DNA of 64,000 bases from an uncultured Candidatus Saccharibacteria bacterium (GTDB lineage: Bacteria > Patescibacteriota > Minisyncoccia > Phycocordibacterales > XYD1-FULL-46-19): positions 18,924 through 82,923 of the forward strand of contig CAZEAY010000003.1 of NCBI GenBank assembly GCA_964510655.1. Direction: 5' to 3'. A program made the translations under genes and the position numbers. Positions within the stretch are counted from its first letter, which is position 1. The number at the start of each line of letters is the position of its first letter. Shown here one piece after another: positions 4,909 to 29,575 of this stretch. A model generated the notes under the pieces. The model was not told the origin of the DNA, ran no database searches, and was given only the letters and a program-made list of their open reading frames with translations.

Positions 4909-6363
4909 TTAGTCTTTGCGCATAAAAAGAGGAGCTGACAACTCTTTCATTTTAATTGCCTCCTGAATCTTTTTAGCCGTAACTGGCATAATGGGTTCCA
5001 AAGCCACAGCAATTCTCCAAAGAGACCCCACTAAATAAGCAACATGTATGCGTGCCTCTTCGGGTTTGTCTTTGTAAAGTTTAAACGGTTGAGTATTTTG
5101 GATGTATAAATCAGCTTCCCCGATTTGTTTCCAAATAAAATCAGCGGCTTTACTTATTTCATAATTATTTAAATTTTCACAATATTCTTGATAAAAATCA
5201 TCAGCCAGCCACTCACGAGACGATTTTAACTCACTGGTAGGTTCTGCAACTTCATAACTCTGATACATTTTTATAATCCGACTAGTCAAATTCCCTAACC
5301 CATTTGCCAGATTAGCATTATAAGATTCCTTAAATTTATCCTCAGTAAAATCACCGTCTTCAAAAGGAGTGATTTCGCGAGCCAAATAATAGCGCAAAGC
5401 TTCCGCCCCATAGTCCTTGACGACCGCGAGCGGATCCACAACATTACCAAGGCTTTTAGACATCTTCTGCCCACCAGAAGTAATAAAACCATGGATAATA
5501 ATTTGTTTAGAGGGTTCTAAGCCAGCTGACAATAACATGGCCTGCCACATCGCTGACTGCTGCCTCAGATTATCTTTACCAGCAAACTGAATTCCCGGCC
5601 ACCACTTACTAAAATTAGACTCATTTTCTGGCCAACCAAGAGCCGAGATATAATTTACCAAAGCATCAAACCAGACGTACATCACCTGCTCACTATCGCC
5701 AGGAACCTCTATCCCCCAAGGCATCTTACTCTTCAAACGAGAAATGCTAAAATCTTGTAGACCGCCAGCTACGAAATTTTTAATTTCATTCAGACGACCA
5801 GCCGGTAAAACAAAAGCTGGGGTTTCATACAAATTCAAAAGGGCTTGTTGGTATTTAGAGAAACGAAAAAAATAATTTTCTTCATCAATCATTTCAATCT
5901 CCATATTAGGATGAAGTGGACATCTGCCATCAGCTAATTCTGAATCGGTTTTTTCGAGTTCACAACCAGCACAATATTTTACCTTATAAGCCTTTTTGTA
6001 GATATCGCCAGACGCTAAACAGCGTGCCCAAAATTCCTGGGCCGCCTTTTTATGATGCTCATCGGTTGTCCGAATAAAATTAAAATTCGGATTGTCGACA
6101 TCAACAGCCAAAACACCAGCCAGCTCTTTGAATTTAGCCGAGTACTCATCAACATAAGTTTGAACTTCTATCCCCCGGCTTTCGGCAATACGTAAAATCT
6201 TAACCCCATGTTCATCAGTACCGGTGTTAAAAAAAACTTCTTGTCCCAAGAGTCTTCGATATCGAGCGATAATATCGGCCTGAATGATCTCTAAAGCAAA
6301 ACCGATATGAGGATCGGCATTTACGTAAGGTAACGTCGTCGTGAAGTAAAATTGATCAGCCAT
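4909..6363 (-). CDS. metG: methionyl-tRNA synthetase
   Basis: PYVNADPHIGFA (HIGH) and KMSKSLGN motifs. Start taken at MADQF (ATG 6361-6363), just after the stop of the upstream gene. Confidence 0.9.
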   Translation of the reverse strand: MADQFYFTTTLPYVNADPHIGFALEIIQADIIARYRRLLGQEVFFNTGTDEHGVKILRIAESRGIEVQTYVDEYSAKFKELAGVLAVDVDNPNFNFIRTTDEHHKKAAQEFWARCLASGDIYKKAYKVKYCAGCELEKTDSELADGRCPLHPNMEIEMIDEENYFFRFSKYQQALLNLYETPAFVLPAGRLNEIKNFVAGGLQDFSISRLKSKMPWGIEVPGDSEQVMYVWFDALVNYISALGWPENESNFSKWWPGIQFAGKDNLRQQSAMWQAMLLSAGLEPSKQIIIHGFITSGGQKMSKSLGNVVDPLAVVKDYGAEALRYYLAREITPFEDGDFTEDKFKESYNANLANGLGNLTSRIIKMYQSYEVAEPTSELKSSREWLADDFYQEYCENLNNYEISKAADFIWKQIGEADLYIQNTQPFKLYKDKPEEARIHVAYLVGSLWRIAVALEPIMPVTAKKIQEAIKMKELSAPLFMRKD

Positions 6364-6364
6364 A

Positions 6365-7423
6365 TTATTTACTTTTAGCGCGAATAGAAATTTTATGTTT
6401 CTCCATATCATCAGCCAATTCCATAATAACCGTCGCTAGTGGCACCGCCACCACCATTCCCAAAAAACCATAAAGTTCGGCCCCGGCCAAAAAAGACAGG
6501 ATAACAATCAATGGCGGAACTCCAATTACTTTTTTGGATACAAGTGGATAAATAACATGACTCTCCAGCTGTTGGATAACAATATAAAAAGCTAGGACAA
6601 TTAGACCCAGACCAGTACTTGTCGAAAAACCCAACAATACTCCCGGTACAGCAAAAAGGATTGGACCGAAGAATGGAATAATTTCAAAGACAGCTGACAT
6701 CAAACCTAAAGTGAGCGCAAATTTGACTCCTAGAATAGATAGGCCAAGCCAAACAGTCAGACCAACCAGTACCCCCAAAAGAACCTGCCCCTGAAACCAC
6801 AGACCAATTTTATTCTCAGTTCGATTCCATAAATTTAATAAATAGTCTTCATATTTCAAAGGGGTAACAATTCTTAAGAAATTCTCAATACCCTTCTCTT
6901 GGACAGCTAAATAGAAAGAAATGACTAAAATTAAAACGAAACTAAAAACGCCTCCAAAAATCACACTAGCGGTACTAAAAAGACTATCCGATAGTTGTAA
7001 AATAAATTTCTGGGCTTGAACAATGAGATCGCTAAGGGAAAAACTAGTCGCTAATCCGCCAGTAATAGAGGACAGTGGGTCAACCGTAGTACTAACCTGA
7101 GTAATGGCATTTAAACGCGCCGGCAAACCATTGGCTAGATCAGTAAGGTCGTTAAAAAGCGGGGGGAGAAGAAAAGAGAAACCAACAAAGATAACAGCAA
7201 AAAAACCAACATACAAAAGGAGAACAGCCCAAATTCGAGAGATCCGATATTTAGCCAAGAATTTCACCCCCTGTCCAACCGCCGTAGCAATAATTACTGC
7301 CACTAAAACAATCAGGATTAAACTTTGAAGTTTGTAGGCGGCCACCAAAACCAAGCCAATAATAATGGCTTTAATAATTGTGCCGGTGGTAATATTTACC
7401 GCTAAAGTCTTAGTGTTATCCAT
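6365..7423 (-). CDS. AI-2E family transporter (PerM/UPF0118)
   Basis: Eight-TM topology with the conserved LNL..R and VLLG... blocks typical of AI-2E/YhhT. Confidence 0.75.
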   Translation of the reverse strand: MDNTKTLAVNITTGTIIKAIIIGLVLVAAYKLQSLILIVLVAVIIATAVGQGVKFLAKYRISRIWAVLLLYVGFFAVIFVGFSFLLPPLFNDLTDLANGLPARLNAITQVSTTVDPLSSITGGLATSFSLSDLIVQAQKFILQLSDSLFSTASVIFGGVFSFVLILVISFYLAVQEKGIENFLRIVTPLKYEDYLLNLWNRTENKIGLWFQGQVLLGVLVGLTVWLGLSILGVKFALTLGLMSAVFEIIPFFGPILFAVPGVLLGFSTSTGLGLIVLAFYIVIQQLESHVIYPLVSKKVIGVPPLIVILSFLAGAELYGFLGMVVAVPLATVIMELADDMEKHKISIRAKSK

Positions 7424-7455
7424 AAAATAGATTAATTTTCCTTATCTAAATACTA

Positions 7456-8721
7456 CTACAGAGTCAAAATATCCACAAACTCTTGTTGATTATCATGAGG
7501 ACCTAAAATAACCAAGTTTATCCCTTTGGTCACAAATATTTTTTGCGCTAAAGTCTTAACATCTTGAGCTGTCACGGCTTTTATTTTTTTGCCAAGATCT
7601 TCAGGAGATAAGATTGTCTCTCCCCTAATTTCTTGAATACCATAAAAGGCAGCTAAATCTGATGGAGTTTCTAGGTTTAAATAAGTTGTCCCAATAAGAC
7701 TGTCTTTAACTCTAGCCAGCTCTTTTTCTGGAACCAATTCCCGCGTTAGTAAAATTATCTCATTAAGAATTGCCTTAAGGACTTCTTTCAATCTCAAACT
7801 TTGAACACCTCCAGAAATACTTAAATAACCATAGTCAGCAAAACTGGTTTGATAGGCGTTAATTGAGTAGGCCGCCCCCATCTCTTCTCGAACCTTTTGA
7901 AACAGACGAGAACTCATTGTTCCACCCAAAATTCCAGCTAATACTTCCGCGGTATAGTAATCGGGGTGACAAGAGCCAAAAGTTTTAAATCCTAAGACAA
8001 TGTTCGTCTGGGCTCCAAGTCGTTTTTTCAAAGAAAGCCTTGGGCCATTAGAAAGATTTTCTGTTTTTTCTACAGAAATGACCTCACCTTTTGCCACTGA
8101 GGAAAAATATTTTTCAATAATGTTCGGCAAATAATCTTGATCAAAATTACCCGCCACAACCACTAAAGTATTTTTTGCGTGATGGAACCTTTTTTGATAG
8201 TCTAAAAAAGCAGAACGATTTATTTTTTTTAAAGTAGACTCTGTTCCTAGAGTATTCCAACCATAAGGAGTATCTCCATACAGAAGCTCCACAAATAAGT
8301 CTTGGGCAACTCGACTAGGGTTATCAGCCGAACGATTTATTTCTTCTTCAATAACTCCACGCTCCTTTTCTATTTCGGACTCACTAAAAGAGGGGTTCAA
8401 ATACATGTCCGCCAAGATATCAAGAGCAGGCTCCAATTTGTCTGGCAAACAACTAACGTAATAGCCAGTATATTCCCGCCCAGTAAAAGCATTGTACTCC
8501 GCCCCCAAAGCATCCAACTCTGCCGACAAATCAATGGCCCGAGGACGTTTTGTCGTCCCCTTAAAACACATGTGCTCCATAAAATGAGAGATGCCATTAA
8601 GCTCTTTTGTTTCGTAATTTGAGCCAACCCCCACCAAGACTAACAAATTTACCGATAAACTATCGGGTCGAGGAACCATTATGAGCCGTAGATCATTATC
8701 TAAAGTAATTTTTTTGTACAT
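7456..8721 (-). CDS. M16 family zinc peptidase (insulinase-like)
   Basis: Inverted zinc motif HFMEHMCFKGT (HxxEH) near the N-terminus. Confidence 0.8.
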   Translation of the reverse strand: MYKKITLDNDLRLIMVPRPDSLSVNLLVLVGVGSNYETKELNGISHFMEHMCFKGTTKRPRAIDLSAELDALGAEYNAFTGREYTGYYVSCLPDKLEPALDILADMYLNPSFSESEIEKERGVIEEEINRSADNPSRVAQDLFVELLYGDTPYGWNTLGTESTLKKINRSAFLDYQKRFHHAKNTLVVVAGNFDQDYLPNIIEKYFSSVAKGEVISVEKTENLSNGPRLSLKKRLGAQTNIVLGFKTFGSCHPDYYTAEVLAGILGGTMSSRLFQKVREEMGAAYSINAYQTSFADYGYLSISGGVQSLRLKEVLKAILNEIILLTRELVPEKELARVKDSLIGTTYLNLETPSDLAAFYGIQEIRGETILSPEDLGKKIKAVTAQDVKTLAQKIFVTKGINLVILGPHDNQQEFVDILTL

Positions 8722-8751
8722 CAGTCAAAAACTAAAAAACGGAAATAAATT

Positions 8752-10056
8752 TTATTTACTTTTTAGCTCAGTCTCTAGTTCAGTTATTTTTACTCTTTTT
8801 TGTTCACCAGTATCTCGGTCGCGCAAAGTAACAGTGTCGTCAGCTAAACTGTCAAAATCAATTGTCACACAATAAGGAGTACCAATTTCATCCTGTCGAC
8901 GATAACGTTTACCAATGTTTCCATTATCATCAAAAGTTACCTGAGGAATTATTTTTTTTATTTGATCATAAACCTCTCGAGCTTTGATCACCAATTCTGG
9001 TTTATTTTTTAACAGTGGAAAGACGGCAACCTTAACAGGAGCAACATCATAGTTAAACTTCAAATAGGAACGCACTTCCCCGTTCATCTCATCTTCGGTA
9101 TAAGCACTAGTGAGAAGAGCTAAGACTAATCGGTCAACACCAAATGATGGTTCAATCACATGGGGAATAAATTTTTCCTTAGTTTCTTCATCCAAATAGA
9201 ACAATTCCGTTCCACTAAATTTAGAATGTTGACTTAAGTCATAGTTTGTCCTGTATGCCATTCCTAAAAGTTCTTTTTTCCCAAAAGGAAATTCAAATTC
9301 GAAATCAATAGTTTTCTTGGAATAATGGGCCAATTCGTCTTCCGGAACATGAAGTTCGCTAACATTTTCTCGAGAAAAGCCCATAGACTCCAAAAATTTC
9401 CAAACAGCTAGTCGCCAGTCTTCAAAATATTTTTCCCATTCTTCCCCACGAATAAAATATTCAATTTCCATTTGTTCAAACTCCCGAGTTCGGAAAATAA
9501 AATCGCGTGGAGTAATTTCATTACGAAAAGCTTTACCGATTTGCCCCACCCCGAAAGGCAACTTGGGATGAAACGAATCCATGATATTTTTAAAGTTAGC
9601 AAAAATTCCCTGAGCCGTTTCAGGTCGCAAATAAGCAACTGAAGATGAGTCCTCCATCGCTCCTAACTCTGTCTTTAGCATCATATTAAACTGTCGCTCC
9701 TGTCCCATTTTACCGCCACATTCTGGACATTTAAGACGATCTTCCAGCTGATCGGAACGGAAGCGTCTTTTGCACTTTTCACATTCAGACAGTGGGTCAA
9801 CAAAAGTATCAACGTGACCAGACGCCTTCCAAACATTTGGATTCATGATAATCGCCGCATCCAAACCATACATATCATCCCGCCCATCCACAAACATCTT
9901 CCACCAAAGACTTTTTATATTATTCTTTAGAGAAACACCTAGTGGGCCGTAGTCCCAAGTTCCAGCCAGTCCCCCATACAGTTCAGAACCTTGATAAATA
10001 AAGCCTCGCCGTTTAGCCAGGGAAGTAATCTTTTCCATTAAATCTTTCTGTTCCAT
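8752..10056 (-). CDS. glyQS: glycyl-tRNA synthetase (class II, alpha2 type)
   Basis: RGFIYQGSELYGGLAGTWDYGPLG N-terminus, class-II motifs and a C-terminal anticodon-binding domain. Start at MEQKDL (ATG 10054-10056). Confidence 0.9.
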   Translation of the reverse strand: MEQKDLMEKITSLAKRRGFIYQGSELYGGLAGTWDYGPLGVSLKNNIKSLWWKMFVDGRDDMYGLDAAIIMNPNVWKASGHVDTFVDPLSECEKCKRRFRSDQLEDRLKCPECGGKMGQERQFNMMLKTELGAMEDSSSVAYLRPETAQGIFANFKNIMDSFHPKLPFGVGQIGKAFRNEITPRDFIFRTREFEQMEIEYFIRGEEWEKYFEDWRLAVWKFLESMGFSRENVSELHVPEDELAHYSKKTIDFEFEFPFGKKELLGMAYRTNYDLSQHSKFSGTELFYLDEETKEKFIPHVIEPSFGVDRLVLALLTSAYTEDEMNGEVRSYLKFNYDVAPVKVAVFPLLKNKPELVIKAREVYDQIKKIIPQVTFDDNGNIGKRYRRQDEIGTPYCVTIDFDSLADDTVTLRDRDTGEQKRVKITELETELKSK

Positions 10057-10133
10057 CTTGATAGGACTATGTGCATAATAATACCAACCACTATACCTCA
10101 AAAAGCGGTTTATTGTCTACAAACAAATTAACC

Positions 10134-12056
10134 CTAATTAACAATCAAATCATCACGATCCCCTCGTTCACGGTCACTTAAACCGGTGGTCATCGAATTA
10201 TCTTCAACAACCAAACTGGAACCGCTAAAAGTATCAACGCCGCGGAAAACCACATTTCTTGTCAACTTAGCCATCGCACCAACTTGATTTATTGAGGGAG
10301 TAAATGATACCTGGAAATTAACCGTCCGAGGATCAGTAGCCACACCCGTTCCAGCCTTGAGATAACCTAAGTCCCACACAACCTTACGCTGTTGCTTATC
10401 ATAACTAATGTTCTCATCGGGAGGAGAAGTCACTCCAACCCACTCTACCCCTAATGGTAAAGTTGTCTCGACAATTCCATTATTGACATCGTTTGATGAA
10501 TTTAGAAGAGACCACTTTAGAGTGTAGGTGGTTTTATTATCTACTTTTGGAGGCAGAGGCCCAGTATTGGACAACGGACCATCGCGGTAAAAAGTTTGAG
10601 TATTTATCTTAACAACAGAATCTATCTTTATAACACGAGACAAATCAGTCTGAACTTTTTCATTAGAAAATCCCTCCGACACTCGGAAACCGGTAATAGT
10701 AATGTCAGTATAAATTCTTGGCCCTCTCAAATTTTTAGCTTCTCCTAAAAGTGGTAACGAAGAAAAACTAAAACCCAGACGACCTGTCGCTCCCGGTTCG
10801 ACAAAAGCTAACTCAGTTTTAGTATGCTTATCCCAGGTAATAGTATTATCAACTGATGAATAATACCCACCTTGAACTCGAACACTCCTTTTGTCGAGAG
10901 CCTCTCCCGTTAGGTGAACAATTACCTGGACATCTCTGAGTTTAATTGGTAAATTATTTACCCATTCAAGATTATACTGGCCATCTTTTTCATTTTTTAA
11001 AGTTAGCGACGCTGATCCTGTCGAAAGATTACCTTCGACAAAAGTAATGCCCAGAAAAGGTTTTTTAATCGTTAAGGTCTTAAAAAAATCGTTGTACAAA
11101 AGAGCAATATTTTTTTCTTGATCAGGATCCTTTATGCCTGCTCGAACCTGAAAAGATTTTAGTTCTTCTGTCTGACCCTCAATCACACCAGTAATATTAA
11201 TAACCCTCTCCACCCCAGGAAGTAAATCACCTAACAACCACTTGCGGGAATCGTAAGTAGGAGGAACATTAGAATTTTTAAACTGAAAACCGGGTGGATA
11301 AATCACTTCAACTAAAACATTATTCAGGGGTTTATCAGAATTAGAAGTAACTTTCAAATTAAGGTTTAATTCTTGATTAGAATTTATCTCTGAGGGAATA
11401 ACCACACTAAGATCAACCGGCGAAGCATTTATTTTAAGACGATAAATAGCCTCTTTTTCAAATAAAGTATTAGAATCTGTCAGATGATAACCTAAATTAA
11501 GCTTTACCTCTAATTCGTCGTTTTCTTTCCCAAAAACAATCGCTCGAGCAACCACATTAACGGTTTCACCAGATTTTATTACTCCAATTTTTTGATTAGT
11601 ATAAGTAAATTGCTTAGCCGTATTATCGGGATCACGCGAACCGTCGGGCCACACCACAGACAACTCGGCTTGATCAATTGCCACCGGATTTTTATTAGTT
11701 AAGGCAATTTGTAAATCAAGTTCATCCCCCGCCTTAAGAGAAACAGGGCCCTTAACCGCGATCTCAATGTTTTTATCCGATACTACATTTTTCCCTTGAG
11801 AAAAAACGTACCAAGCCGCCCCTAGGGCTAGTAAAAAAAACACAAAAGAAATACCAAGAATCTTAAGCCAAATATTACCAGCTCTTTTAGTCCCAGAGAC
11901 ATTAGGTTGAGTGGTCCAAGTTTTATTGACGGACTTATAATAAGGATTTAAATTACTCCGCCTAACCTGAAAATTGCCTCCATCACGTTCGTATAGTTTC
12001 TTTTTTAATTCTTCAATCCCCCGATTGTTAGGTGTCGGATTATTAGTTGATTCCAT
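10134..12056 (-). CDS. large N-terminally membrane-anchored extracellular protein, hypothetical
   Basis: 640 aa with a single TM (ILGISFVFFLLALGAAWYVF) followed by ~540 aa rich in beta-strand (T/S/N/V) residues. No family recognised. Confidence 0.5.
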   Translation of the reverse strand: MESTNNPTPNNRGIEELKKKLYERDGGNFQVRRSNLNPYYKSVNKTWTTQPNVSGTKRAGNIWLKILGISFVFFLLALGAAWYVFSQGKNVVSDKNIEIAVKGPVSLKAGDELDLQIALTNKNPVAIDQAELSVVWPDGSRDPDNTAKQFTYTNQKIGVIKSGETVNVVARAIVFGKENDELEVKLNLGYHLTDSNTLFEKEAIYRLKINASPVDLSVVIPSEINSNQELNLNLKVTSNSDKPLNNVLVEVIYPPGFQFKNSNVPPTYDSRKWLLGDLLPGVERVINITGVIEGQTEELKSFQVRAGIKDPDQEKNIALLYNDFFKTLTIKKPFLGITFVEGNLSTGSASLTLKNEKDGQYNLEWVNNLPIKLRDVQVIVHLTGEALDKRSVRVQGGYYSSVDNTITWDKHTKTELAFVEPGATGRLGFSFSSLPLLGEAKNLRGPRIYTDITITGFRVSEGFSNEKVQTDLSRVIKIDSVVKINTQTFYRDGPLSNTGPLPPKVDNKTTYTLKWSLLNSSNDVNNGIVETTLPLGVEWVGVTSPPDENISYDKQQRKVVWDLGYLKAGTGVATDPRTVNFQVSFTPSINQVGAMAKLTRNVVFRGVDTFSGSSLVVEDNSMTTGLSDRERGDRDDLIVN

Positions 12057-12109
12057 TAGCCATAATTATACCACAGCTAAAAAAAGAGGAAATAAATAAT
12101 TAAAACCTA

Positions 12110-12709
12110 CTAAATATGACTAATCTCTATCGCTTCATTGATCACTGTTATTAAGAAACTTTGGTTAATATTAGCTTCCGAGAGTAGTCCCAAATTCCAA
12201 TCAGAAAAAGAGAGAAATGGAGTTAGTTTGGGGTTCTCTTTGATATAGCCTAGAAAGGCAAGCAACCTTAAGACGGTCACCTGTTCCCAGCCAGATAAAT
12301 ATTTCTGGTCACCCGGTGGTAAGATTAGCCCAGACAAAAAGTTTAAGGACTTTTTTAAATCTTCAAATAATACCTTTTGAGCAATTTCACCCTGAATAAA
12401 TCGACGTAAAAGAGAAAAAATCTTTGCCGCAAATTTAAGTTTAGAAGAGTTTTGATACACACTTTCAAATTCTCCTGTCTTCTCAGCTCCAATTAGACGC
12501 CAAGTTTCTTTTCCGCGAACCAAGACTACTCGTACGTGACTGTAATTACTTAAGTTGAAACGCAATTTTGATTTAAGTAAACGCACCCCTTGAGCCGTGG
12601 CAGTAACCAATCCAAGATCGGGCGTTAATAGAGAATAAACCTTATTAGCTTCACCAAAAACCCGTTCGTCTAAAACGAACGCTTCAGTTTGATAAAGATG
12701 ATAAGCCAT
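12110..12709 (-). CDS. recO: DNA repair protein RecO (probable)
   Basis: N-terminal pattern YQTEAFVLDERVFGEANKVYSLLT..GLVTATAQGVRLLKS resembles the RecO OB-fold region. Start at MAYHLY (ATG 12707-12709). Confidence 0.55.
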   Translation of the reverse strand: MAYHLYQTEAFVLDERVFGEANKVYSLLTPDLGLVTATAQGVRLLKSKLRFNLSNYSHVRVVLVRGKETWRLIGAEKTGEFESVYQNSSKLKFAAKIFSLLRRFIQGEIAQKVLFEDLKKSLNFLSGLILPPGDQKYLSGWEQVTVLRLLAFLGYIKENPKLTPFLSFSDWNLGLLSEANINQSFLITVINEAIEISHI

Positions 12710-12716
12710 AAAACAA

Positions 12717-15700
12717 TTACAAATTATGAATTGAGATCCCAAAGAAAAGATCCCCGATCTTGGTCTCGCCCACACCGGTTTCTAATTCAATTTCAGCCGT
12801 ACCAGTCCCCCGTTTGATTTCCTCAATAAATTTCTTAACCAAGGTTTGTCCTGTTTCGTCGGTTATTATCTTTAAATTAATGATATCTCCCGGATTTAAA
12901 CCTGTTTTTTTACGCAGTTCCTGAATATTACGCATCAATTCGCGCATATCGCCTTCTTCTTTTAATTCTTGAGTAATACTCGTATCTAACCTAACTCCCG
13001 GAAGATCAGGGTCGGCATTTTTTTCAAAAATAACATTTTTAACATTGACTTCGTCTTTAATCAGCTCTTTCAAATGATTCCAATAATTTGGTTCATTCCC
13101 GTCATGTTTTATAATCAAGGCTGACAGTGGTTGTCGAACTTTTATACCATCCACATCTCTCGCCATAAGTCCCATTGAGGCAAATGATCGGGCAAAGCTC
13201 ATTCCAACAATAATATCTTGATCAAATTTCTCGGTGATTGGCCAGCTTTCCAAGTGTACGCTTTCCTTAACTCCCTCAGTTTTACGATAGATATCCTCGG
13301 CAATAAACGGAGTAAATGGCGCCATCATCTTAGCCAAACTATTTAAAATAGTTTTCATTGTAAAAATCGCCCAATTTTTGTCATCAATATCACCTGATTT
13401 AAAACGATCACGTGATCGACGTAAGTACCAATTAGATAAGTCATCGATAAATTCATCAATCGGACGTACAGCACGATCAATTTCATATTTATCCATTGCC
13501 TCCGTTACTTTAGTTACAAGCTCGCCGAATCTGGCATTAATCCAAATATCTAAAACGTTTTCAGATTGACCTTGAACGTCGGCTAATGTTTTTGGGGCAT
13601 ACATCTCATAAAAAGAGTACACATTATTGAGACGCATAATAATTTTACGATAAATTTCTCCTACCCCTTTTTCGGAAAAATTCAAATCCTCTGCTCTCAT
13701 AACTGGAGAGGCCAATAAATAAAAACGTAAGGCATCGGCTCCAAATTTTTCCACCACACTCATTGGATCAGGGTAATTTTTGAGACTCTTAGACATCTTC
13801 TGGCCATCCTCAGCCAAAACCAGTCCATTGACGACTACATTCTTATAACTAGTTTTACCGAACAGAGCGGTGGACAAAACCAACATAGAATAAAACCAAC
13901 CCCGAGTTTGATCGAGACCCTCGGCAATAAAATCGGCTGGAAACCCATTCCCATCACTAGGATCAAAATCTTTCAAATCACTAAAGGGATAATGAGCCTG
14001 ACCATAAGGCATGGAGCCAGATTCAAACCAACAATCAAAAACATCGGGTACTCTAGTCATTTCCCCACCACAACCACAAGCAAACTTTATTTGATCAATA
14101 TACGGACGATGTAGATCAAGATCATAGAGAGTATTGTGTGGTAAAAAAGAAAAATCTAATGACTGAATTTCTGCATTCTTGAAACGTGACCCCCAATGAG
14201 ACATTTTTTCAATCTCTCGACTATTATTACCCGCAGCAGCTGTCATCATAAAAAACAAAGGCAAGCTGTGGCTAACAATCAAAATGTTTTTACCAGTATA
14301 TTTTTCATTCAACTCATACAAGACTTCCCCCATTCGTTTCTTAACCTCTAAACAAGATTCTCCGTTGGTTTGAGATTTAAACAATTTTTCATGTTTAGAG
14401 TTAAAATGCTTATCATACTCTACCCAATTTCCCTCATCAGCATCACCAACATTATATTCTCCCAGGCGGGCATCAAAAATAATTTTATCTTGAGACAAAC
14501 CAATTGTTTGAGCGACGAGCTCAGCCGTTTCTTTGGTTCGAACAAAAGGCGAAGAAATGATTACTTCAATGTTAGATCCCTTTAGACTTTCGGCAGAAGA
14601 AATAACCTGTTCTTTGCCCTCAGTCGTAAGATGATAGTTTTTGCCTAACTTACAATCAATTGTATCGGTCAAATTATTCTCAGACTGACCGTGACGCATT
14701 AAGAAGTAACGATTATTTTTTGTCTGCAAATTATCCTTCAATTCTTGAATGCTCCCAACCACCTTAATTTGTTTACAATCTTCACAGCGCCAAACTGGAA
14801 TTGGAGCGCCCCAAAAACGAGTCCGAGAAATCGCCCAATCACGAGCTCCTTCTAGCCATTTACCAAAACGACCCTCTTTAATATGTTCTGGGACCCAAGA
14901 AATAGTTTTATTGTTCGCCACCAAATCATCACGAAATTTAGTCACCTCAACAAACCACGAAGAAGCGGCGTAATTTAACAATGGAGTACCACAACGCCAA
15001 CAGTGCGGGTAAGAATGAGAAATTTTTTCTTTCGCAAATAAAATTCCTTTAGCCGCCAGGTATTTAATAATTTTTACATCCATCGCTTGGTTTTCCACCG
15101 TAGATGGTCCATCATCTTCTAATCCCGGAGCACTTTTAGGTTTTACTAATTCCCCCACCCAATCGATAACTTCCGGTTTAAACCGGCCATCCATTCCGAC
15201 ATGCTGAATAAATGGTAGTTTTTCTTTTTGACCCAACTTCATATCATCTTCTCCAAAAGCGGGAGCAATGTGTACTACCCCCGTACCATCTTCAGTCGTC
15301 ACAAAATCAGCACCATAAATTTTCCAACCATTTTCCCGATTTTTTATTGTCTCATCAGTAAGGTAATAATCAAAAGCAGGTTGATATTTTTTACCCACTA
15401 AAGTACTACCCTTAAAAGTATCCTCAATAGTATAATCAGAGGCATTACTAAAATTTTTCTCCAAAAGATCTTTAGCGAGAATATAAGAAAGATGATCGTC
15501 GCTATTATTCATTCCAATTTTGACGTAATCAATCTCAGGGTTAACAGCCAAAGCCACATTACCCGGCAAAGTCCAAGGAGTAGTTGTCCAAGCTAAAATC
15601 GAAGTTCCCGGCTCATCAACTAGACCAAACTTAACCACCACCGAGAGATCGGTGATATCTTTATACCCCTGATTCACTTCAAAATTAGATAGAGTAGTCT

Positions 15701-16256
15701 CACAGCGCGGACAAATCTGCATTGATTTATAGCCTTCATAAATCAGACCTTTGTTGTGGAGGTTTTTAAAGATATTCATTACCGACTCGGAATAAGAAGC
15801 ATCCATCGTCCGATAATCGTTTTCCATATCAATGAAACGACCCAATCGTGGCACAATTTGTTTCCAGTCCTCTACATACTCTTGGACCATCTCACGAGCC
15901 TTTTCGTTAAACTTTTCAATACCGTAATCTTCAATATCTTTTTTGGATTTCAAACCGAGTTCTTTTTCCACTAGGTTTTCGGCTGGCAAACCATGACAAT
16001 CCCAGCCCCAACGTCGGCGGACAAAATTACCCTTCATCGTCCAATAGCGAGGAATCACATCTTTCATTGTTCCCCCAACAATATGTCCATAGTGAGGAGT
16101 GCCAGTCGCAAAAGGTGGTCCATCATAAAAGACGTATTCTTTTGCCCCTTTAGTCGTCTCCAGAGTTTTTTCAAAAATTTTATTATCTTGCCAAAACTTT
16201 AAAATTTCTTCCTCTTTCCGAGAGACATCACTTTTATTATTTTTCTCCTCTGTCAT
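12717..16256 (-). CDS. ileS: isoleucyl-tRNA synthetase (type 2) with an inserted histidine-phosphatase domain
   Basis: PHYGH (HIGH), the editing-domain block TTPWTLPGN and KMSKS are present. An extra ~190 aa block (aa ~515-705) carries the RHG..R..E..H histidine-phosphatase signature. Confidence 0.95.
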   Translation of the reverse strand: MTEEKNNKSDVSRKEEEILKFWQDNKIFEKTLETTKGAKEYVFYDGPPFATGTPHYGHIVGGTMKDVIPRYWTMKGNFVRRRWGWDCHGLPAENLVEKELGLKSKKDIEDYGIEKFNEKAREMVQEYVEDWKQIVPRLGRFIDMENDYRTMDASYSESVMNIFKNLHNKGLIYEGYKSMQICPRCETTLSNFEVNQGYKDITDLSVVVKFGLVDEPGTSILAWTTTPWTLPGNVALAVNPEIDYVKIGMNNSDDHLSYILAKDLLEKNFSNASDYTIEDTFKGSTLVGKKYQPAFDYYLTDETIKNRENGWKIYGADFVTTEDGTGVVHIAPAFGEDDMKLGQKEKLPFIQHVGMDGRFKPEVIDWVGELVKPKSAPGLEDDGPSTVENQAMDVKIIKYLAAKGILFAKEKISHSYPHCWRCGTPLLNYAASSWFVEVTKFRDDLVANNKTISWVPEHIKEGRFGKWLEGARDWAISRTRFWGAPIPVWRCEDCKQIKVVGSIQELKDNLQTKNNRYFLMRHGQSENNLTDTIDCKLGKNYHLTTEGKEQVISSAESLKGSNIEVIISSPFVRTKETAELVAQTIGLSQDKIIFDARLGEYNVGDADEGNWVEYDKHFNSKHEKLFKSQTNGESCLEVKKRMGEVLYELNEKYTGKNILIVSHSLPLFFMMTAAAGNNSREIEKMSHWGSRFKNAEIQSLDFSFLPHNTLYDLDLHRPYIDQIKFACGCGGEMTRVPDVFDCWFESGSMPYGQAHYPFSDLKDFDPSDGNGFPADFIAEGLDQTRGWFYSMLVLSTALFGKTSYKNVVVNGLVLAEDGQKMSKSLKNYPDPMSVVEKFGADALRFYLLASPVMRAEDLNFSEKGVGEIYRKIIMRLNNVYSFYEMYAPKTLADVQGQSENVLDIWINARFGELVTKVTEAMDKYEIDRAVRPIDEFIDDLSNWYLRRSRDRFKSGDIDDKNWAIFTMKTILNSLAKMMAPFTPFIAEDIYRKTEGVKESVHLESWPITEKFDQDIIVGMSFARSFASMGLMARDVDGIKVRQPLSALIIKHDGNEPNYWNHLKELIKDEVNVKNVIFEKNADPDLPGVRLDTSITQELKEEGDMRELMRNIQELRKKTGLNPGDIINLKIITDETGQTLVKKFIEEIKRGTGTAEIELETGVGETKIGDLFFGISIHNL

Positions 16257-16309
16257 TTAAGTACTTTATCGTAAATTAGGTCTTTCCGCAATAAAAATGA
16301 TTATTTTCA

Positions 16310-16338
16310 TTGACAGATAAAATAAAAGAGGCTAAAGT
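16310..16338 (+). promoter_or_regulatory. sigma70-like promoter for the GC-rich small gene P2
   Basis: TTGACA (16310-16315), 17-nt spacer, TAAAGT (16333-16338). Confidence 0.4.
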
Positions 16339-16393
16339 TATAAAGGATTAATTACATCCAAACTATTGTAGGTAGTAGCAGGAGGCTCTTTCC

Positions 16394-16579
16394 ATGTTGC
16401 GCAACGCTCAAGCAGGACAGAAGAAGGCGGCGATAAAACCACTCGAATTCAAACCACGCAGACCAGACCCCTTTGGTTGGGGTGATCCGAGACCAGCCAT
16501 CAAATTGGGGCTCCCCAATGAAGACGGCATCCCCGTAAATTCTGGCCGGCAAATGCAGGCCATTGAAATCGATTACTAA
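16394..16579 (+). CDS. GC-rich small protein P2 (61 aa), hypothetical; paralog of 1431..1661
   Basis: AGGAGG (16380-16385) + 8 nt + ATG. The ORF stops 20 nt before a GC-rich hairpin and T-run. Composition is foreign to the surrounding sequence. Shares the I-[EK]-L-x-L-P and DG[IV]P[IV]..G..M.A[LI] motifs with P1. Confidence 0.5.
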   Translation: MLRNAQAGQKKAAIKPLEFKPRRPDPFGWGDPRPAIKLGLPNEDGIPVNSGRQMQAIEIDY

Positions 16580-16599
16580 AACAACAACGCAACACAAAA

Positions 16600-16639
16600 G
16601 CCCCGTGATCCTGTAAGGATCCCGGGGCCTTACTTTTTT
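16600..16639. terminator. bidirectional terminator (P2 and argS)
   Basis: GCCCCGTGATCC-tgta-GGATCCCGGGGC hairpin followed by CTTACTTTTTT on plus. A U-rich tract also follows on the minus strand. Confidence 0.6.
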
Positions 16640-16641
16640 AG

Positions 16642-18330
16642 CTACATCTTTGACAGCGGTTTAAGACCCAACAATACTAGTCCATTTCTTAAAACTTGAC
16701 CAACAGCCCGAGTTAATCCAACTCGATAAGGAGAGCTAGCCTCCAGACTTACAACTTGATGTTCAATATAATAAAAACTGAAAGCACTCGCTAACTCATA
16801 TAAATAAGTAGCAATATGATGGGGAGCATATTCCAAACAGGCATATTCCACGACCTCGGGGAAACGATAAAGAAGTTTTTCGACTGTAGTCATTTCATCT
16901 TCTGGTCGAGACAAATTGGATTTTATCCCCTCTTTTTCCGCTTTAGCTAAAATAGATTGAGTGCGTGCAAAAGCATACTGTAGATATGGACCAGAGTTAC
17001 CAGATAAATTTAATGTCTCATCCCAATCAAAAACAATATTAGCCCGACTATCACGTTTTAAATCGTTATATTTAAGTGCCCCAATACCAATATCGGAAGC
17101 TGTTTCAAGATTAAACTTTCCAGCTCGCGTCACCGCTTCAGCAATAACATCTTCCAACCAAATGACATTACCTTTGCGGGTACTCATTTTCCCATCGAGA
17201 AAGCGATATAAACCATGTGAGACATGAACTCGTTGTCCATCTTTAAACCAACCGAGCATTTTCTCAGTCTCATAAAGTTGCCTCATGTAAGTTTCTTGTT
17301 CAGAACCAACCTCATTAACAATAATCAAATTGTCACCATATTTTTCTTTCCGCTCAAGATCGGCCCCCAGATCACGAGTAGCATAAATCGAAGTTCCGTC
17401 ACCCTTACGAACAATCATTGGTGGCAATTTTTTTTCATCAGCAAAAAAGACCACTTCTGCCCCCTCACTCTCCTTCATCAAACCCTTATCAGTTAATTCC
17501 TGATAAACTCGAGAAACTTTGGGAATATAGGTACTCTCCCCTAAAGTGGTGTCAAAAGTTATTCCCAGCTGTTGATAAATTTTATTGAATTCAAACAATG
17601 ATAAATTGACGCAGCTTTGCCAAAGTTCTTTAGCGGAAGAATCACCTTTCTCTAATTTTAAAAACTCTGCCCGTGCCTCTTCTTCAAGTTCTGGATTCTT
17701 TTCCGCCTCGTCATGGAATTTCACATACAAAGAAACAAGTTCTTTCACTGGGTTCTCGCTTTTTCCAATCTGATTGATGTCCCCCCACTTTTTAATGGCC
17801 ACCATTTGTTTACCAAACTGTGTCCCCCAATCCCCGAGATGGTTATCGCGAATAACCTCAAACCCTGAAAAAGATAAAATATTGGCCACCGCATCACCAA
17901 TAATCGTTGATCTTAAGTGTCCAATTGAAAAAGGTTTAGCAATATTAGGAGAAGAATATTCGACTAATACTTTTTGATCTTTTTTATCTCCGCGACCAAA
18001 GTTATCACCCTGATCAAGAATAAAACCAATTTGTTTAACAAAAAACTCTCTACTTAAATAAAAATTTAAAAAACCTGGTCCAGCCACTTCCACCCGATCA
18101 ATTTTTTCATTTTTCAATTTCAAAAGCTCCTCTTTCATCTTTAGAGCAAGGTCCTTAGCTGACAAACCATTAGCTGGTCCAAACTTTAGCGCAAAGTTAC
18201 TGGAATAATCCCCAAAATTTAAATCAGTAGGATGTTCTAAAGAAATATTTTCCACCAAAAAACTAAGGTTTAAAGCCTTAGCCGCCTGTCCAAGCAGACT
18301 CCGTAATTCGTTCCTAATATCATTAGCCAT
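16642..18330 (-). CDS. argS: arginyl-tRNA synthetase
   Basis: N-terminal Arg_tRNA_synt_N-like region, class-I catalytic core and C-terminal DALR-type anticodon-binding region. Confidence 0.9.
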   Translation of the reverse strand: MANDIRNELRSLLGQAAKALNLSFLVENISLEHPTDLNFGDYSSNFALKFGPANGLSAKDLALKMKEELLKLKNEKIDRVEVAGPGFLNFYLSREFFVKQIGFILDQGDNFGRGDKKDQKVLVEYSSPNIAKPFSIGHLRSTIIGDAVANILSFSGFEVIRDNHLGDWGTQFGKQMVAIKKWGDINQIGKSENPVKELVSLYVKFHDEAEKNPELEEEARAEFLKLEKGDSSAKELWQSCVNLSLFEFNKIYQQLGITFDTTLGESTYIPKVSRVYQELTDKGLMKESEGAEVVFFADEKKLPPMIVRKGDGTSIYATRDLGADLERKEKYGDNLIIVNEVGSEQETYMRQLYETEKMLGWFKDGQRVHVSHGLYRFLDGKMSTRKGNVIWLEDVIAEAVTRAGKFNLETASDIGIGALKYNDLKRDSRANIVFDWDETLNLSGNSGPYLQYAFARTQSILAKAEKEGIKSNLSRPEDEMTTVEKLLYRFPEVVEYACLEYAPHHIATYLYELASAFSFYYIEHQVVSLEASSPYRVGLTRAVGQVLRNGLVLLGLKPLSKM

Positions 18331-27939: not shown

Positions 27940-28014
27940 TGGGTGTCCAGAGAGAATCGAACTCTCGTTATCGCTTCCACAAAGCGATGTCCTAACCGCT
28001 GGACGATGGACACC
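27940..28014 (-). tRNA. tRNA-His (anticodon GTG)
   Basis: Cloverleaf with anticodon loop CTTGTGGA and an extra 5' G(-1) opposite the discriminator C. T-loop TTCGATT. Confidence 0.85.
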
Positions 28015-28020
28015 ATATTT

Positions 28021-28527: not shown

Positions 28528-28556
28528 ATCATACCAAAAATCAACTCAAGGTAAAA

Positions 28557-28592
28557 CCCAGCGACTGTGGATATATATCCACAGTCGCTGGG
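28557..28592. repeat. 36-nt perfect palindrome containing inverted DnaA-box-like half-sites
   Basis: CCCAGCGACTGTGGATAT/ATATCCACAGTCGCTGGG. TGTGGATAT matches 8 of 9 positions of the reverse-complemented TTATCCACA. Confidence 0.5.
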
Positions 28593-28604
28593 TAGATGTA
28601 ATGT

Positions 28605-29162: not shown

Positions 29163-29224
29163 AGGGGTAATATACCATAGTCCAAAAAAAATTCCACCCA
29201 AAGTATGGATGGAGATTAGTGGGC

Positions 29225-29536: not shown

Positions 29537-29575
29537 GGAGACCTCCTTGGGAAAGATGACAGAATCCCTATCTGG

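What the first reader, a model, noticed from the sequence alone, without database searches (positions are those of the whole stretch)
14140..14720. Complete histidine-phosphatase (PGAM-like) domain inserted in-frame inside the catalytic core of isoleucyl-tRNA synthetase
Seen in sequence:
- The 1179-aa IleRS ORF is collinear with type-2 IleRS up to ...PIPVWRCEDCKQIKVVGSIQELKDNLQTKNN.
- It resumes at ...LDFSFLPHNTLYDLDLHRPYIDQIKFACGCGG.. and continues through KMSKS.
- About 190 residues (aa ~515-705) lie between those two blocks.
- The insert carries the branch-1 histidine-phosphatase hallmarks in the expected order: LMRHGQSENN (catalytic Arg-His-Gly), TEGKEQ, SSPFVRTKETAE (second Arg), LGEYNVGD (Glu) and LIVSHSLP (second His).
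- The insert has the same AT-rich composition as the rest of ileS, so it is unlikely to be a recent acquisition.

Established knowledge:
- In characterised enzymes such as Thermus thermophilus IleRS, the segment ..SFQELKA.. to ..DPHRPYVDQ.. is only about 10 residues.
- It is not intein-like: no Cys/Ser start, no His-Asn end.

Inference: an aminoacyl-tRNA synthetase with an embedded, apparently catalytically competent phosphatase module is not an architecture I know to be described. Possible roles are hydrolysis of Ile-AMP, Ap4A or PPi, or an editing or regulatory function.
Basis: partly seen in the sequence, partly recalled or inferred. Interest (0 to 1): 0.85.

Follow-up and report, generated by a model that had tools for sequence, protein, structure and literature searches.

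The report
Phosphatase domain nested inside isoleucyl-tRNA synthetase
The enzyme that loads isoleucine onto tRNA in this small-genome (Patescibacteria) bacterium carries a complete, apparently active phosphatase enzyme spliced into the middle of its catalytic core; the arrangement recurs in hundreds of related species and at other positions in related synthetases, but what it does is unknown.

Summary
ORF 12717-16256 (-) is a 1179-aa type-2 IleRS (TIGR00392, 904.7 bits). Residues 515-705 (nt 14142-14714) are a full branch-1 histidine-phosphatase domain (PF00300, E = 6e-30).

- **Site:** the domain sits in the CP3 subdomain, between the two Cys pairs of its zinc knuckle.
- **Not an artefact:** all 120 best full-length database homologues carry it. 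A scan of GTDB species genomes found 261 genomes, and the best 80 are all Patescibacteria.
- **Under selection:** R521, H522, G523, R573, E600 and H663 are invariant in 117 sequences, although the insert is only about 42% identical on average.
- **Structure:** AlphaFold gives a confident autonomous fold. It resembles the small-molecule phosphatases PhoE, PspA, GpgP and CobC, and does not pass the models for true phosphoglycerate mutase.
- **New here:** the same phosphatase subfamily is nested at three or more other IleRS sites and at three ValRS sites, in up to four copies. It is fused to TsaC. As a separate gene it lies next to ileS, a YbaK-like editing gene plus ilvA, and a HinT-like gene.

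The substrate is unknown. I favour a hydrolase coupled to adenylate and editing chemistry, acting on PPi or AMP, at low confidence. I found no published description.

The parts
12717..16256 (-). ileS: 1179-aa type-2 isoleucyl-tRNA synthetase carrying the nested domain
   Evidence: ORF. TIGR00392 ileS scores 904.7 bits against a cut-off of 621.4. The AF2 model has pLDDT 91.1 and pTM 0.84. Foldseek best match is P. megaterium IleRS2 8c8v, TM 0.83 normalised to the target.
14715..16256 (-). IleRS aa 1-514: first half of the Rossmann fold, CP core, CP1 editing domain, CP2, and the start of CP3
   Evidence: Pfam tRNA-synt_1 covers aa 18-516. HIGH = PHYGH at 16083-16097 and TTTPWT at 15570-15587. 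The editing motifs are invariant in 117 homologues.
14775..14786 (-). First Cys pair of the CP3 zinc knuckle (C491-E-D-C494)
   Evidence: Translation. Aligns to CQAC 461-464 of T. thermophilus IleRS. C491 and C494 are invariant in alignment A2. About half of the more distant insert-bearing IleRS have lost both pairs.
14142..14714 (-). Nested histidine-phosphatase (His_Phos_1, branch 1) domain, aa 515-705
   Evidence: PF00300 at aa 518-702, E = 6.3e-30. The stand-alone AF2 model has pLDDT 93.9 and pTM 0.91. Foldseek TM is 0.70-0.76 to GpgP, PspA, PhoE, HFP, CobC and TIGAR. Junction pLDDT is 91-96 in the full model.
14688..14696 (-). R521-H522-G523: catalytic Arg and the nucleophilic His
   Evidence: Translation. 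Invariant in 117/117 homologues. Aligns to the RH of PspA and PhoE.
14538..14540 (-). R573: second phosphate-binding Arg (motif SPFVRTKETAE)
   Evidence: Invariant in 117/117. Aligned to the Arg of PspA and PhoE.
14457..14459 (-). E600: candidate general acid (motif RLGEYNVGD)
   Evidence: Invariant in 117/117. It lies 27 residues after R573, the same spacing as R62-E89 in dPGM (established knowledge).
14268..14270 (-). H663: second catalytic His (motif LIVSHSLP)
   Evidence: Invariant in 117/117. Aligned to the SH of PspA and PhoE.
14070..14078 (-). Second Cys pair of the CP3 zinc knuckle (C727-G-C729)
   Evidence: Translation. Aligns to CAC 502-504 of T. thermophilus IleRS.
12717..14141 (-). 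IleRS aa 706-1179: rest of CP3, second half of the Rossmann fold with KMSKS, anticodon-binding domain, C-terminal domain
   Evidence: Second stretch of tRNA-synt_1, Anticodon_1 at aa 903-1046 and DUF5915 at aa 1087-1176. KMSKS lies at 13785-13799.

Best explanation
**What it is (shown).** This is a bifunctional protein. A working type-2 IleRS has an autonomous, rigidly attached branch-1 histidine phosphatase nested in a surface loop of its CP3 subdomain, between the two halves of the zinc knuckle. The fusion is old. It is inherited vertically across Paceibacteria-type Patescibacteria and is kept under purifying selection for phosphatase chemistry.

**How it most likely works (inferred).** The domain is a phospho-histidine hydrolase. 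H522 attacks a terminal phosphoryl group held by R521, R573 and H663. E600 protonates the leaving group, and water then releases Pi. The domain acts beside the synthetase rather than inside its active site.

The same phosphatase subfamily has repeatedly been joined to enzymes that form or proofread adenylates in tRNA metabolism. Examples are IleRS at four or more sites, ValRS at three sites, TsaC, and gene neighbourhoods with ileS, a YbaK-like deacylase plus IlvA, and HinT. My preferred reading is therefore that it removes a small phosphorylated by-product of activation and editing cycles, either PPi or AMP or a related nucleotide. That would keep amino-acid activation and kinetic proofreading irreversible.

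The identity of the substrate is not shown.
For: **Identity and integrity**
- family assignments; the catalytic set is invariant in 117 sequences although the insert averages 42% identity.
- confident fold, the same secondary structure alone and in context, and junction pLDDT above 90; the nearest folds are small-molecule phosphomonoesterases.
- HIGH, KMSKS and the editing motifs are intact.

**Age and spread**
- at least 120 protein clusters and 261 species genomes. Two IleRS subclades are involved, at 40-62% core identity to the window.
- insert and core co-diverge, r = 0.85.
- the spacing is bimodal (50-68 aa or 231-273 aa) with almost nothing in between.

**Functional coupling**
- further nesting sites exist in IleRS (after the second Cys pair; between SMPY..HYPF and FPADFIAEG; in the anticodon-binding domain). 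ValRS has sites in CP2, in CP3 and after WFSSG..LGWP. Copy number reaches four, and nearly all copies keep RH[GA]..R..E..H.
- a TsaC (threonylcarbamoyl-AMP synthase) fusion.
- a separate phosphatase ORF whose stop overlaps (ATGA) the start of an insert-less ileS.
- an operon of a YbaK-like tRNA_edit gene, the phosphatase, and IlvA.
- a HinT-like HIT gene as neighbour.

**Chemistry.** Phosphoanhydride and PPi cleavage are documented in the superfamily, though only in branch 2 (PMC13573052, PMC7926622).
Against: - No substrate was tested, and no branch-1 member that I know of is a dedicated pyrophosphatase.
- The nesting sites are far apart on IleRS: CP3, the second half of the Rossmann fold, and the anticodon-binding domain. 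Precise channelling from the synthetic site is therefore unlikely. For a freely diffusing product, tethering gives little kinetic gain.
- Other aaRS in the same window (MetRS, ArgRS, one class II enzyme) have no such domain, although they also release PPi and AMP.
- The TsaC, YbaK/IlvA, HinT and ileS-adjacent contexts are single metagenomic contigs, at 31-41% identity to the insert. The L088 ORF has an in-frame stop.
- The search started from an IleRS insert, so the list of fusion partners is biased towards IleRS.
- I could not test whether these genomes lack a conventional pyrophosphatase.
Confidence: 0.35

Rival explanations
1. **Housekeeping phosphatase using IleRS as a carrier.** The domain is a general metabolic phosphomonoesterase acting on sugar phosphates, phospho-amino acids or cofactor precursors. 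Its chemistry is unrelated to aminoacylation. Nesting in an essential, constitutively expressed gene only guarantees expression and retention in a reduced genome.
For: - The nearest structures are broad-specificity or metabolic phosphatases: PhoE, PspA, GpgP, HFP and CobC.
- The nesting site is not fixed, so geometry relative to the synthetic site seems unimportant.
- The domain is mildly acidic, with median pI 6.1.
- Free-standing relatives exist.
- Patescibacterial IleRS also tolerates other nested domains, such as GNAT and an IS200-like Y1 domain.
Against: - Among the 150 nearest relatives, every fusion partner is IleRS, ValRS or TsaC.
- Two of five free-standing relatives examined sit in tRNA or aminoacylation contexts, with a HinT-like neighbour in a third.
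- Repeated nesting and copy amplification inside the same two paralogous synthetases is hard to explain by chance carriage.
Confidence: 0.25
2. **tRNA-end repair phosphatase.** The domain removes a 3'-phosphate, 2',3'-cyclic-phosphate-derived phosphate or 3'-pyrophosphate from the acceptor end of tRNA held on the synthetase. Such ends arise from nuclease damage or from toxSAS/CapRel-type pyrophosphorylation. Removing the group restores a chargeable CCA end. This would be a second hydrolytic 'repair' site analogous to CP1.
For: - Tethering matters most for macromolecular substrates.
- tRNA spans the enzyme from the anticodon-binding domain to CP3, so domains at all the nesting sites would be near some part of it (PMC11685878).
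- The CP2-CP3 linker forms part of the A76 pocket in yeast IleRS (PMC7955072).
- YbaK-like and TsaC partners are tRNA-directed.
Against: - The domain is not basic (median pI 6.1).
- No known branch-1 member acts on RNA ends (my knowledge).
- Only tRNAIle and tRNAVal would be served.
- TsaC and HinT act on small molecules.
- No structural docking was possible.
Confidence: 0.15
3. **Protein phosphatase.** Like SixA, Sts-1 or PGAM5, the domain dephosphorylates IleRS itself or a partner. That could reverse inhibitory phosphorylation by HipA-like toxin kinases or regulatory kinases.
For: - The superfamily contains pHis, pTyr and pSer/Thr protein phosphatases (established knowledge).
- There is a weak N-terminal similarity to SixA (35.9 bits, below the cut-off).
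- aaRS are known targets of HipA-family kinases (my knowledge).
- Acting in cis makes the position in the host protein flexible.
Against: - The fold and sequence neighbours are small-molecule phosphatases, not SixA, Sts or PGAM5.
- No kinase is linked in any of the contexts seen.
Confidence: 0.08
4. **The cell's glycolytic phosphoglycerate mutase.** The domain is a dPGM nested in IleRS.
For: The best NCBIfam phosphatase-type hit is the short archaeal dPGM model NF038349.
Against: - The score is 85.9 bits against a cut-off of 225.
- The segment after E600 (YNVGDADEG) lacks the Arg, Tyr and Lys that bind the distal phosphate and carboxylate in mutases (my knowledge of dPGM).
- The structural neighbours are phosphatases.
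Confidence: 0.04
5. **Artefact or dead remnant.** The feature is an assembly chimera, an intein-like selfish insert, or a decayed pseudo-enzyme spacer.
For: A conserved H-N dipeptide lies at the C-terminal junction. The insert evolves about 1.7 times faster than the core.
Against: - Hundreds of independent assemblies share the junctions.
- There is no HINT or intein hit, no Cys or Ser at the start, and the +1 residue is variable.
- All catalytic residues are invariant.
- The fold is predicted with confidence.
Confidence: 0.01

Closest known systems
Type-2 (eukaryote-like or Thermus-like) IleRS, e.g. Priestia megaterium IleRS2 (8C8V), T. thermophilus IleRS (1ILE), yeast IleRS (8WND)
   Same: Same domain order: Rossmann fold, CP core, CP1 editing, CP2, CP3, anticodon-binding and C-terminal domains. 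HIGH, KMSKS and editing motifs are present. TM 0.83-0.90 normalised to the target, 32-34% identity. Collinear across the insertion point.
   Different: These enzymes have a loop of about 11-14 residues where this protein has a 191-residue phosphatase domain. None of the solved IleRS has a catalytic domain in CP3.
NCBIfam NF040702 'isoleucine--tRNA ligase, N-acetyltransferase domain-containing' (ileS_w_GNAT)
   Same: An IleRS that carries an extra nested enzyme domain. Some Patescibacteria proteins have both, e.g. P0228 with GNAT at aa 285-415 and His_Phos at aa 664-827.
   Different: A different enzyme family (GNAT) at a different site, the CP1 region. The window protein scores only 316.7 bits against a cut-off of 1999, so it is not a member.
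Broad-specificity branch-1 histidine phosphatases: PhoE/YhfR (1H2E, 1EBB), PspA phosphoserine phosphatase (4IJ5), GpgP Rv2419c (4QIH), CobC, HFP (9MMH)
   Same: Same fold (TM 0.70-0.76) and the same catalytic residues. Similar size of about 190-210 aa.
   Different: Only 17-25% identity in the Foldseek alignments. The curated cut-offs for PspA, CobC and dPGM are not reached. Those enzymes are free-standing, whereas this one is nested in a synthetase.
CP1 editing domain of class Ia synthetases
   Same: A hydrolytic domain inserted into the connective-peptide region of the Rossmann fold of IleRS, ValRS and LeuRS. It gives the synthetase a second catalytic site.
   Different: CP1 is an ester hydrolase for misacylated tRNA and is universal in the class. 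The insert is a phosphoryl-transfer hydrolase, restricted to certain lineages, at other sites and of an unrelated fold. The analogy is conceptual only.
Bifunctional RNase H / acid phosphatase (Rv2228c type, NCBIfam NF005567) and PFK-2/FBPase-2
   Same: A branch-1 histidine phosphatase covalently joined to another enzyme. NF005567 matches the insert over model positions 172-346 (77.9 bits).
   Different: Those are end-to-end fusions, not nested domains. The partner enzymes are unrelated to aminoacylation. The score is below the cut-off of 326.

Membership tests
Isoleucyl-tRNA synthetase (TIGR00392 ileS, type 2) | Whole-protein score above the curated equivalog cut-off | tested here: met
   904.7 bits against 621.4, in two stretches split by the insert.
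Isoleucyl-tRNA synthetase (TIGR00392 ileS, type 2) | Class I signature motifs HIGH and KMSKS | tested here: met
   PHYGH at aa 54-58 and KMSKS at aa 820-824. H55, G57, K820 and K823 are invariant in 117 homologues.
Isoleucyl-tRNA synthetase (TIGR00392 ileS, type 2) | CP1 editing domain with the Thr-rich and GTG.VH motifs | tested here: met
   TTTPWT at aa 224-229, and G324, G326, H329 and D338, are invariant.
Isoleucyl-tRNA synthetase (TIGR00392 ileS, type 2) | Overall fold of type-2 IleRS | tested here: met
   The AF2 model (pLDDT 91.1) matches 8c8v at TM 0.83 and 1ile at TM 0.90, normalised to the target. Type-1 IleRS matches are weaker, at 22-23% identity.
Isoleucyl-tRNA synthetase (TIGR00392 ileS, type 2) | Ile-specific aminoacylation of tRNAIle | not testable with these tools
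   Needs a biochemical assay.
Histidine phosphatase superfamily, branch 1 (PF00300) | Domain score above the Pfam gathering threshold, covering nearly the whole model | tested here: met
   104.7 bits against 21.7; model positions 2-181 of 194.
Histidine phosphatase superfamily, branch 1 (PF00300) | Catalytic core: RHG His nucleophile, two Arg, a second His, and an acidic proton donor | tested here: met
   R521, H522, R573, H663 and E600 are invariant in 117/117. N528 is kept in 114/117. The residues align to PspA and PhoE.
Histidine phosphatase superfamily, branch 1 (PF00300) | Alpha/beta fold of the superfamily | tested here: met
   The stand-alone model has pLDDT 93.9. Foldseek probability is 1.00 and TM 0.70-0.76 to many family members.
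Histidine phosphatase superfamily, branch 1 (PF00300) | Phosphatase activity through a phospho-histidine intermediate | not testable with these tools
   Needs an enzyme assay with an H522A control.
   NF038349 scores 85.9 against 225. GpmB NF002901 scores 54.2 against 261.
CobC alpha-ribazole phosphatase / PspA phosphoserine phosphatase | Score above the curated equivalog cut-offs | tested here: not met
   TIGR03162 scores 57.5 against 162.9. NF045917 scores 54.1 against 350.
Intein | Cys/Ser/Thr at position 1, a terminal His-Asn followed by Cys/Ser/Thr, and a HINT fold | tested here: not met
   The insert starts N-(R/N/K)-(Y/F). H707-N708 is conserved but residue 709 is R/H/E/T. No intein or HINT Pfam hit, and the fold is His_Phos.
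IleRS with GNAT domain (NF040702) | Score above the cut-off, and a GNAT domain present | tested here: not met
   316.7 bits against 1999. There is no GNAT hit in the window protein.

The most novel reading that the evidence does not exclude
Class Ia synthetases have repeatedly acquired a second, phosphate-directed catalytic module that takes part in aminoacylation quality control or repair. One version is a built-in PPi- or AMP-clearing activity that makes activation and kinetic proofreading irreversible in PPi-rich, reduced cells. The other is a tRNA acceptor-end phosphatase that undoes 3'-phosphorylation or pyrophosphorylation. Either would be a new kind of aaRS-embedded enzymatic function, convergently evolved in IleRS, ValRS and TsaC.
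Probability: 0.3. Interest if true: 0.9.

Novelty: new variant of a known kind. Interest (0 to 1): 0.72.

Why it matters
Aminoacyl-tRNA synthetases are among the best-studied enzymes. Their extra domains are known to add tRNA binding, editing or signalling functions. A conserved, catalytically intact phosphatase nested inside the catalytic core would add a new type of activity to the aaRS repertoire. It is found in hundreds of uncultured species, recurs at different sites and copy numbers in IleRS and ValRS, and is linked to TsaC, YbaK-like and HinT-like genes.

It gives a concrete, clonable handle on three questions. How do ultra-small symbiotic bacteria manage PPi and nucleotide by-products, or damage to tRNA ends? 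How are whole enzymes inserted into essential proteins without loss of function? Which loops of class Ia synthetases tolerate large insertions, which is useful for engineering?

It also exposes an annotation gap. Pipelines name these proteins generically, or call fragments 'PhoE'.

Tried and rejected
- **Assembly chimera.** Rejected, because of the independent assemblies.
- **Intein.** Rejected.
- **True dPGM, CobC or PspA membership.** Rejected on the curated cut-offs.
- **Split ileS at the insert.** The short hits P0012, P0020 and P0024 on long contigs, and L058, were candidates. L058 has a run of N/X at the junction and the others look like truncated or frameshifted calls, so this was not pursued as biology.
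- **Inter-domain geometry.** I tried to measure the distance between the two active sites, but model coordinates are not exposed to the scripts. AFDB50 was not available.
- **Conventional pyrophosphatase.** Motif scans of the 64-kb window for PPase, adk, HIT and DHH found nothing. This is uninformative for a genome of about 0.6-1 Mb. Two papers on CPR metabolism did not settle it.
- **Genome-collection scan.** The first attempt, with a 20-sequence alignment, failed for lack of a conserved stretch. It succeeded with 7 sequences.
- **'Free-standing' short hits.** P0254, P0257 and P0306 are probably fragments of IleRS. They keep the C-terminal junction sequence, and P0254 clusters with a 723-aa protein. 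They were not counted as free-standing.
- **RNA-binding signature.** The nested domains have median pI 6.1, so there is no support for it.
Full report
**1. The observation**

The minus-strand ORF 12717-16256 encodes a 1179-aa protein. NCBIfam identifies it as isoleucine--tRNA ligase: TIGR00392 scores 904.7 bits against a cut-off of 621.4, in two stretches.

Pfam finds tRNA-synt_1 at aa 18-516 plus a second stretch, Anticodon_1 at aa 903-1046 and DUF5915 at aa 1087-1176. Between the two tRNA-synt_1 stretches it finds His_Phos_1 (PF00300) at aa 518-702. That hit has E = 6.3e-30 and 104.7 bits against a gathering score of 21.7, and covers model positions 2-181 of 194. All the quoted motifs are present.

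With the insert removed in silico, the sequence is collinear with T. thermophilus IleRS residues 422-602. The insertion point lies in the loop ...SFQELKARATKP/LPEPFDPHRPYVDQ..., between the Cys pairs CQAC (461-464) and CAC (502-504). This segment is the CP3 subdomain, which is zinc-binding in the Thermus enzyme. CP3 spans residues 473-534 in Candida IleRS and 459-526 in yeast IleRS (PMC7191050; PMC7955072).

GC content is 0.363 in the insert and 0.392 in the rest of ileS.

**2. Not an artefact, and widespread**

- A full-length search returned an identical NCBI protein (P0121, on a 94-kb contig). All 120 listed hits are 53-100% identical, 1137-1352 aa long, and carry PF00133 plus PF00300. NCBI names them 'class I tRNA ligase family protein'. 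Fragments are variously called 'histidine phosphatase family protein' or 'PhoE'.
- One motif from the insert, [FYL][VLI]RTKETAE, was scanned over one genome per GTDB species. It found 261 genomes. The best 80 are all Patescibacteria: Paceibacterota, Nomura-, Campbell-, Yonath-, Taylor- and Lloydbacteria, and Parcubacteria. In nearly all of them the motif lies about 560 residues into an ORF of about 1150-1300 aa.
- The host IleRS falls into two subclades. One has GPPFATGxPHYGH and 50-62% core identity to the window. The other has GPPTANGxPGIHH and 40-47%. Both have the insert at the same site. The two zinc Cys pairs are kept in roughly half of the loci and are usually lost together.
- The spacing between WGxPxPxW and DCWFESG is bimodal. 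It is 50-68 aa in 79 insert-less proteins and 231-273 aa in 176 insert-bearing ones.
- Insert and core identities co-vary over 6786 pairs (r = 0.85, slope 1.7). The two parts have therefore diverged together, with the insert evolving faster.

**3. The insert is an intact enzyme domain**

- In 117 aligned homologues, R521, H522, G523, R573, E600, E633, R641 and H663 are invariant, and N528 is kept in 114. Mean identity to the window is 42% in the insert and 64% in the core.
- These residues are the branch-1 catalytic set: the RHG nucleophile, two Arg, the second His and the Glu proton donor. They align residue for residue with PspA (4IJ5) and PhoE (1EBB, 1H2E).
- The length between C494 and H716 varies only from 218 to 229 aa.
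- AlphaFold2 on the whole protein gives pLDDT 91.1 and pTM 0.84. The insert blocks score 90-97 and both junctions 91-96, which suggests rigid packing rather than a floppy linker.
- Modelled alone, the domain gives pLDDT 93.9 and pTM 0.91, with the same secondary-structure elements.
- The whole model matches type-2 IleRS. TM normalised to the target is 0.83 for 8C8V, 0.82-0.89 for yeast 8WND and 0.90 for 1ILE. The host fold is therefore undisturbed.
- The isolated domain matches GpgP Rv2419c, PspA, HFP, PhoE, CobC and TIGAR, with TM 0.70-0.76 and 17-25% identity.
- It does not reach the curated cut-offs for dPGM (85.9 against 225), CobC (57.5 against 162.9) or PspA (54.1 against 350). 'PGAM-like' is therefore true only at superfamily level.
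- It is not an intein. P-H-N (aa 706-708) is conserved, but the following residue varies, the N-terminus has no Cys or Ser, and no HINT family is hit.

**4. What the wider search added**

An exhaustive HMMER search with the insert gave 5333 hits at E ≤ 1e-3 and 580 at E ≤ 1e-10. I classified the 150 best hits together with the earlier hits by their flanking sequences.

IleRS nesting sites:
- **Site A**, the window's site, accounts for about 240 instances.
- **Site A'** lies after the second Cys pair (P0262).
- **Site B** lies between ...WFESGSMPYA... and ...FPADFIAEG... Examples are P0343, P0262 and the P0304 cluster, which has 6 members on contigs up to 1.06 Mb.
- **Site C** is a loop of the anticodon-binding domain, near window aa 895-899 (P0304, P0315, P0026, and P0262, where it is truncated).
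- Single proteins carry two or three copies.

P0304 carries sites B and C. Its neighbours include pyruvate:ferredoxin oxidoreductase, purA, DAHP synthase and an SLH-domain protein. That is unlike a reduced Patescibacterium, so the association is probably not confined to one phylum.

ValRS nesting (NCBIfam valS models):
- P0247 has one copy in CP2 and three tandem copies in CP3.
- P0388 has one in CP3.
- P0384 has one after WFSSG..LGWP.

Other associations:
- P0272 is a complete TsaC/Sua5 (TIGR00057, 146.8 bits) with the phosphatase fused at its C-terminus.
- Nearly all copies keep RH[G/A]..R..E..H.
- In L088, a separate phosphatase ORF ends in an ATGA overlap with the start of an insert-less ileS. 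That ORF has an in-frame TAA shortly after RHGQ, so it may be a pseudogene or a sequencing error.
- P0244 lies in a 4-nt-overlap operon between a YbaK-like tRNA_edit gene and threonine ammonia-lyase IlvA.
- P0082 lies next to a HinT-like HIT gene.
- P0071 has no informative neighbours.

Within the window, ileS lies in a run of synthetase genes: MetRS, a class II aaRS, a DUF11 protein, RecO, IleRS and ArgRS. The other synthetases have no phosphatase domain. The argS-ileS-recO order recurs in L058.

**5. Interpretation**

*Shown:*
- A bifunctional architecture exists: an intact IleRS plus an intact histidine phosphatase.
- It is old and vertically inherited.
- Selection acts on the phosphatase chemistry.
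- This phosphatase subfamily is recurrently and physically associated with class Ia synthetases and with other adenylate or tRNA enzymes.

*Inferred:*
- The variety of nesting sites argues against strict geometric channelling from the synthetic site. It does not argue against a need for co-localisation or for a fixed stoichiometry with the synthetase.
- The fusion partners share ATP-dependent adenylate formation that releases PPi (IleRS, ValRS, TsaC), or breakdown and proofreading of adenylates and aminoacyl-tRNA that yields AMP (the editing aaRS, HinT, YbaK).
- A phospho-histidine enzyme binds a terminal phosphoryl group. Monoesters such as AMP, or the terminal phosphate of PPi, are therefore chemically plausible. 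Diester-like Ile-AMP and Ap4A are not.
- Phosphoanhydride and PPi hydrolysis are documented for branch-2 members only.

I therefore prefer a by-product-clearing role, acting on PPi or AMP/nucleotide, that keeps activation and kinetic proofreading irreversible. My confidence in this mechanism is about 0.35.

The rivals are:
- an unrelated housekeeping phosphatase that uses IleRS as a carrier (0.25);
- a tRNA-end phosphatase (0.15);
- a protein phosphatase (0.08);
- a glycolytic mutase (0.04);
- an artefact or dead remnant (0.01).

The mildly acidic pI of the nested domains (median 6.1) gives no support to RNA binding.

*Main weaknesses:*
- No biochemistry was done.
- Some of the genomic contexts rest on single contigs.
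- The search was biased by starting from an IleRS insert.
- I could not test whether these genomes lack a conventional pyrophosphatase.

**6. Comparison with what is known, and novelty**

The host is an ordinary type-2 IleRS. The guest is an ordinary PhoE/CobC/PspA-like phosphatase. Nested catalytic domains in IleRS have a curated precedent in NCBIfam NF040702, an IleRS with a GNAT domain. Some Patescibacteria proteins carry both GNAT and His_Phos.

Six full-text searches found no paper that mentions a histidine phosphatase in IleRS or in any other aaRS. The library lacks most subscription-journal papers, so a prior mention cannot be excluded. The sequences themselves are public.

I class this as a new variant of a known kind: an aaRS with an added catalytic domain. 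It has an unusually strong evolutionary signal, namely recurrence at several sites, in two synthetases, and in several copies. Interest: 0.72.

Noticed in passing
P0228 (aa 285-415) and P0352 (aa 935-1063), homologues: Some Patescibacteria IleRS that carry the phosphatase insert also carry a nested GNAT acetyltransferase. In P0228 it is Acetyltransf_3, the RimL/RimJ type, in the CP1 region. In P0352 the GNAT lies after the phosphatase. NCBIfam has a curated model for IleRS with GNAT (NF040702).
   Followed up: partly
P0352 aa 340-461: An IS200-like Y1 transposase domain (PF01797, E = 7e-12) reads in-frame inside the editing-domain region of an IleRS that also has His_Phos and GNAT. It could be a real nested domain, a mobile element read through, or a gene-calling artefact.
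   Followed up: no
P0179 (1352 aa) and L029, L043, L061 ORFs (1295-1367 aa); Several insert-bearing IleRS are 100-190 aa longer than the rest. In P0179 the extra residues lie before the phosphatase, within the first tRNA-synt_1 stretch, and match no Pfam family.
   Followed up: no
P0038 (416 aa, on a 58-kb contig): This is an IleRS fragment with a site-A phosphatase and no zinc cysteines. After HRPYID it continues into an unrelated segment with a serine-hydrolase-like motif (IVAHSLGC) instead of the rest of IleRS. It may be a rearranged or degenerate second copy.
   Followed up: no
window 4909-18330, minus strand: Four aminoacyl-tRNA synthetase genes are clustered within 13.5 kb: MetRS (4909-6411), a class II aaRS with an HGTP anticodon domain (8752-10101), IleRS and ArgRS (16642-18330). 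They are interspersed with an AI-2E transporter, an M16 peptidase, a DUF11 surface-type protein and RecO. The argS-ileS-recO order recurs in L058.
   Followed up: partly
window 22278-23570 (-): In this 430-aa ORF the ThyX (Thy1) domain covers only aa 16-211. The C-terminal 220 residues or so have no Pfam match.
   Followed up: no
window 27942-40652: Eight tRNA genes lie within about 13 kb on both strands. No rRNA or other Rfam family is found in the window.
   Followed up: no
window 12717-12775: The mechanically listed RecO-like ORF (12110-12775, GTG start) overlaps the 3' end of ileS by 59 nt. The RecO_N match starts at aa 27 and there is an internal Met (MAYHLYQ...). The real start is therefore probably downstream and the overlap spurious.
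   Followed up: partly
L088 nt 150-235: The separate phosphatase gene upstream of an insert-less ileS has an in-frame TAA a few codons after its RHGQ motif. It may be a pseudogene, a sequencing error or recoding. This bears on whether this 'unfused' arrangement is functional.
   Followed up: partly
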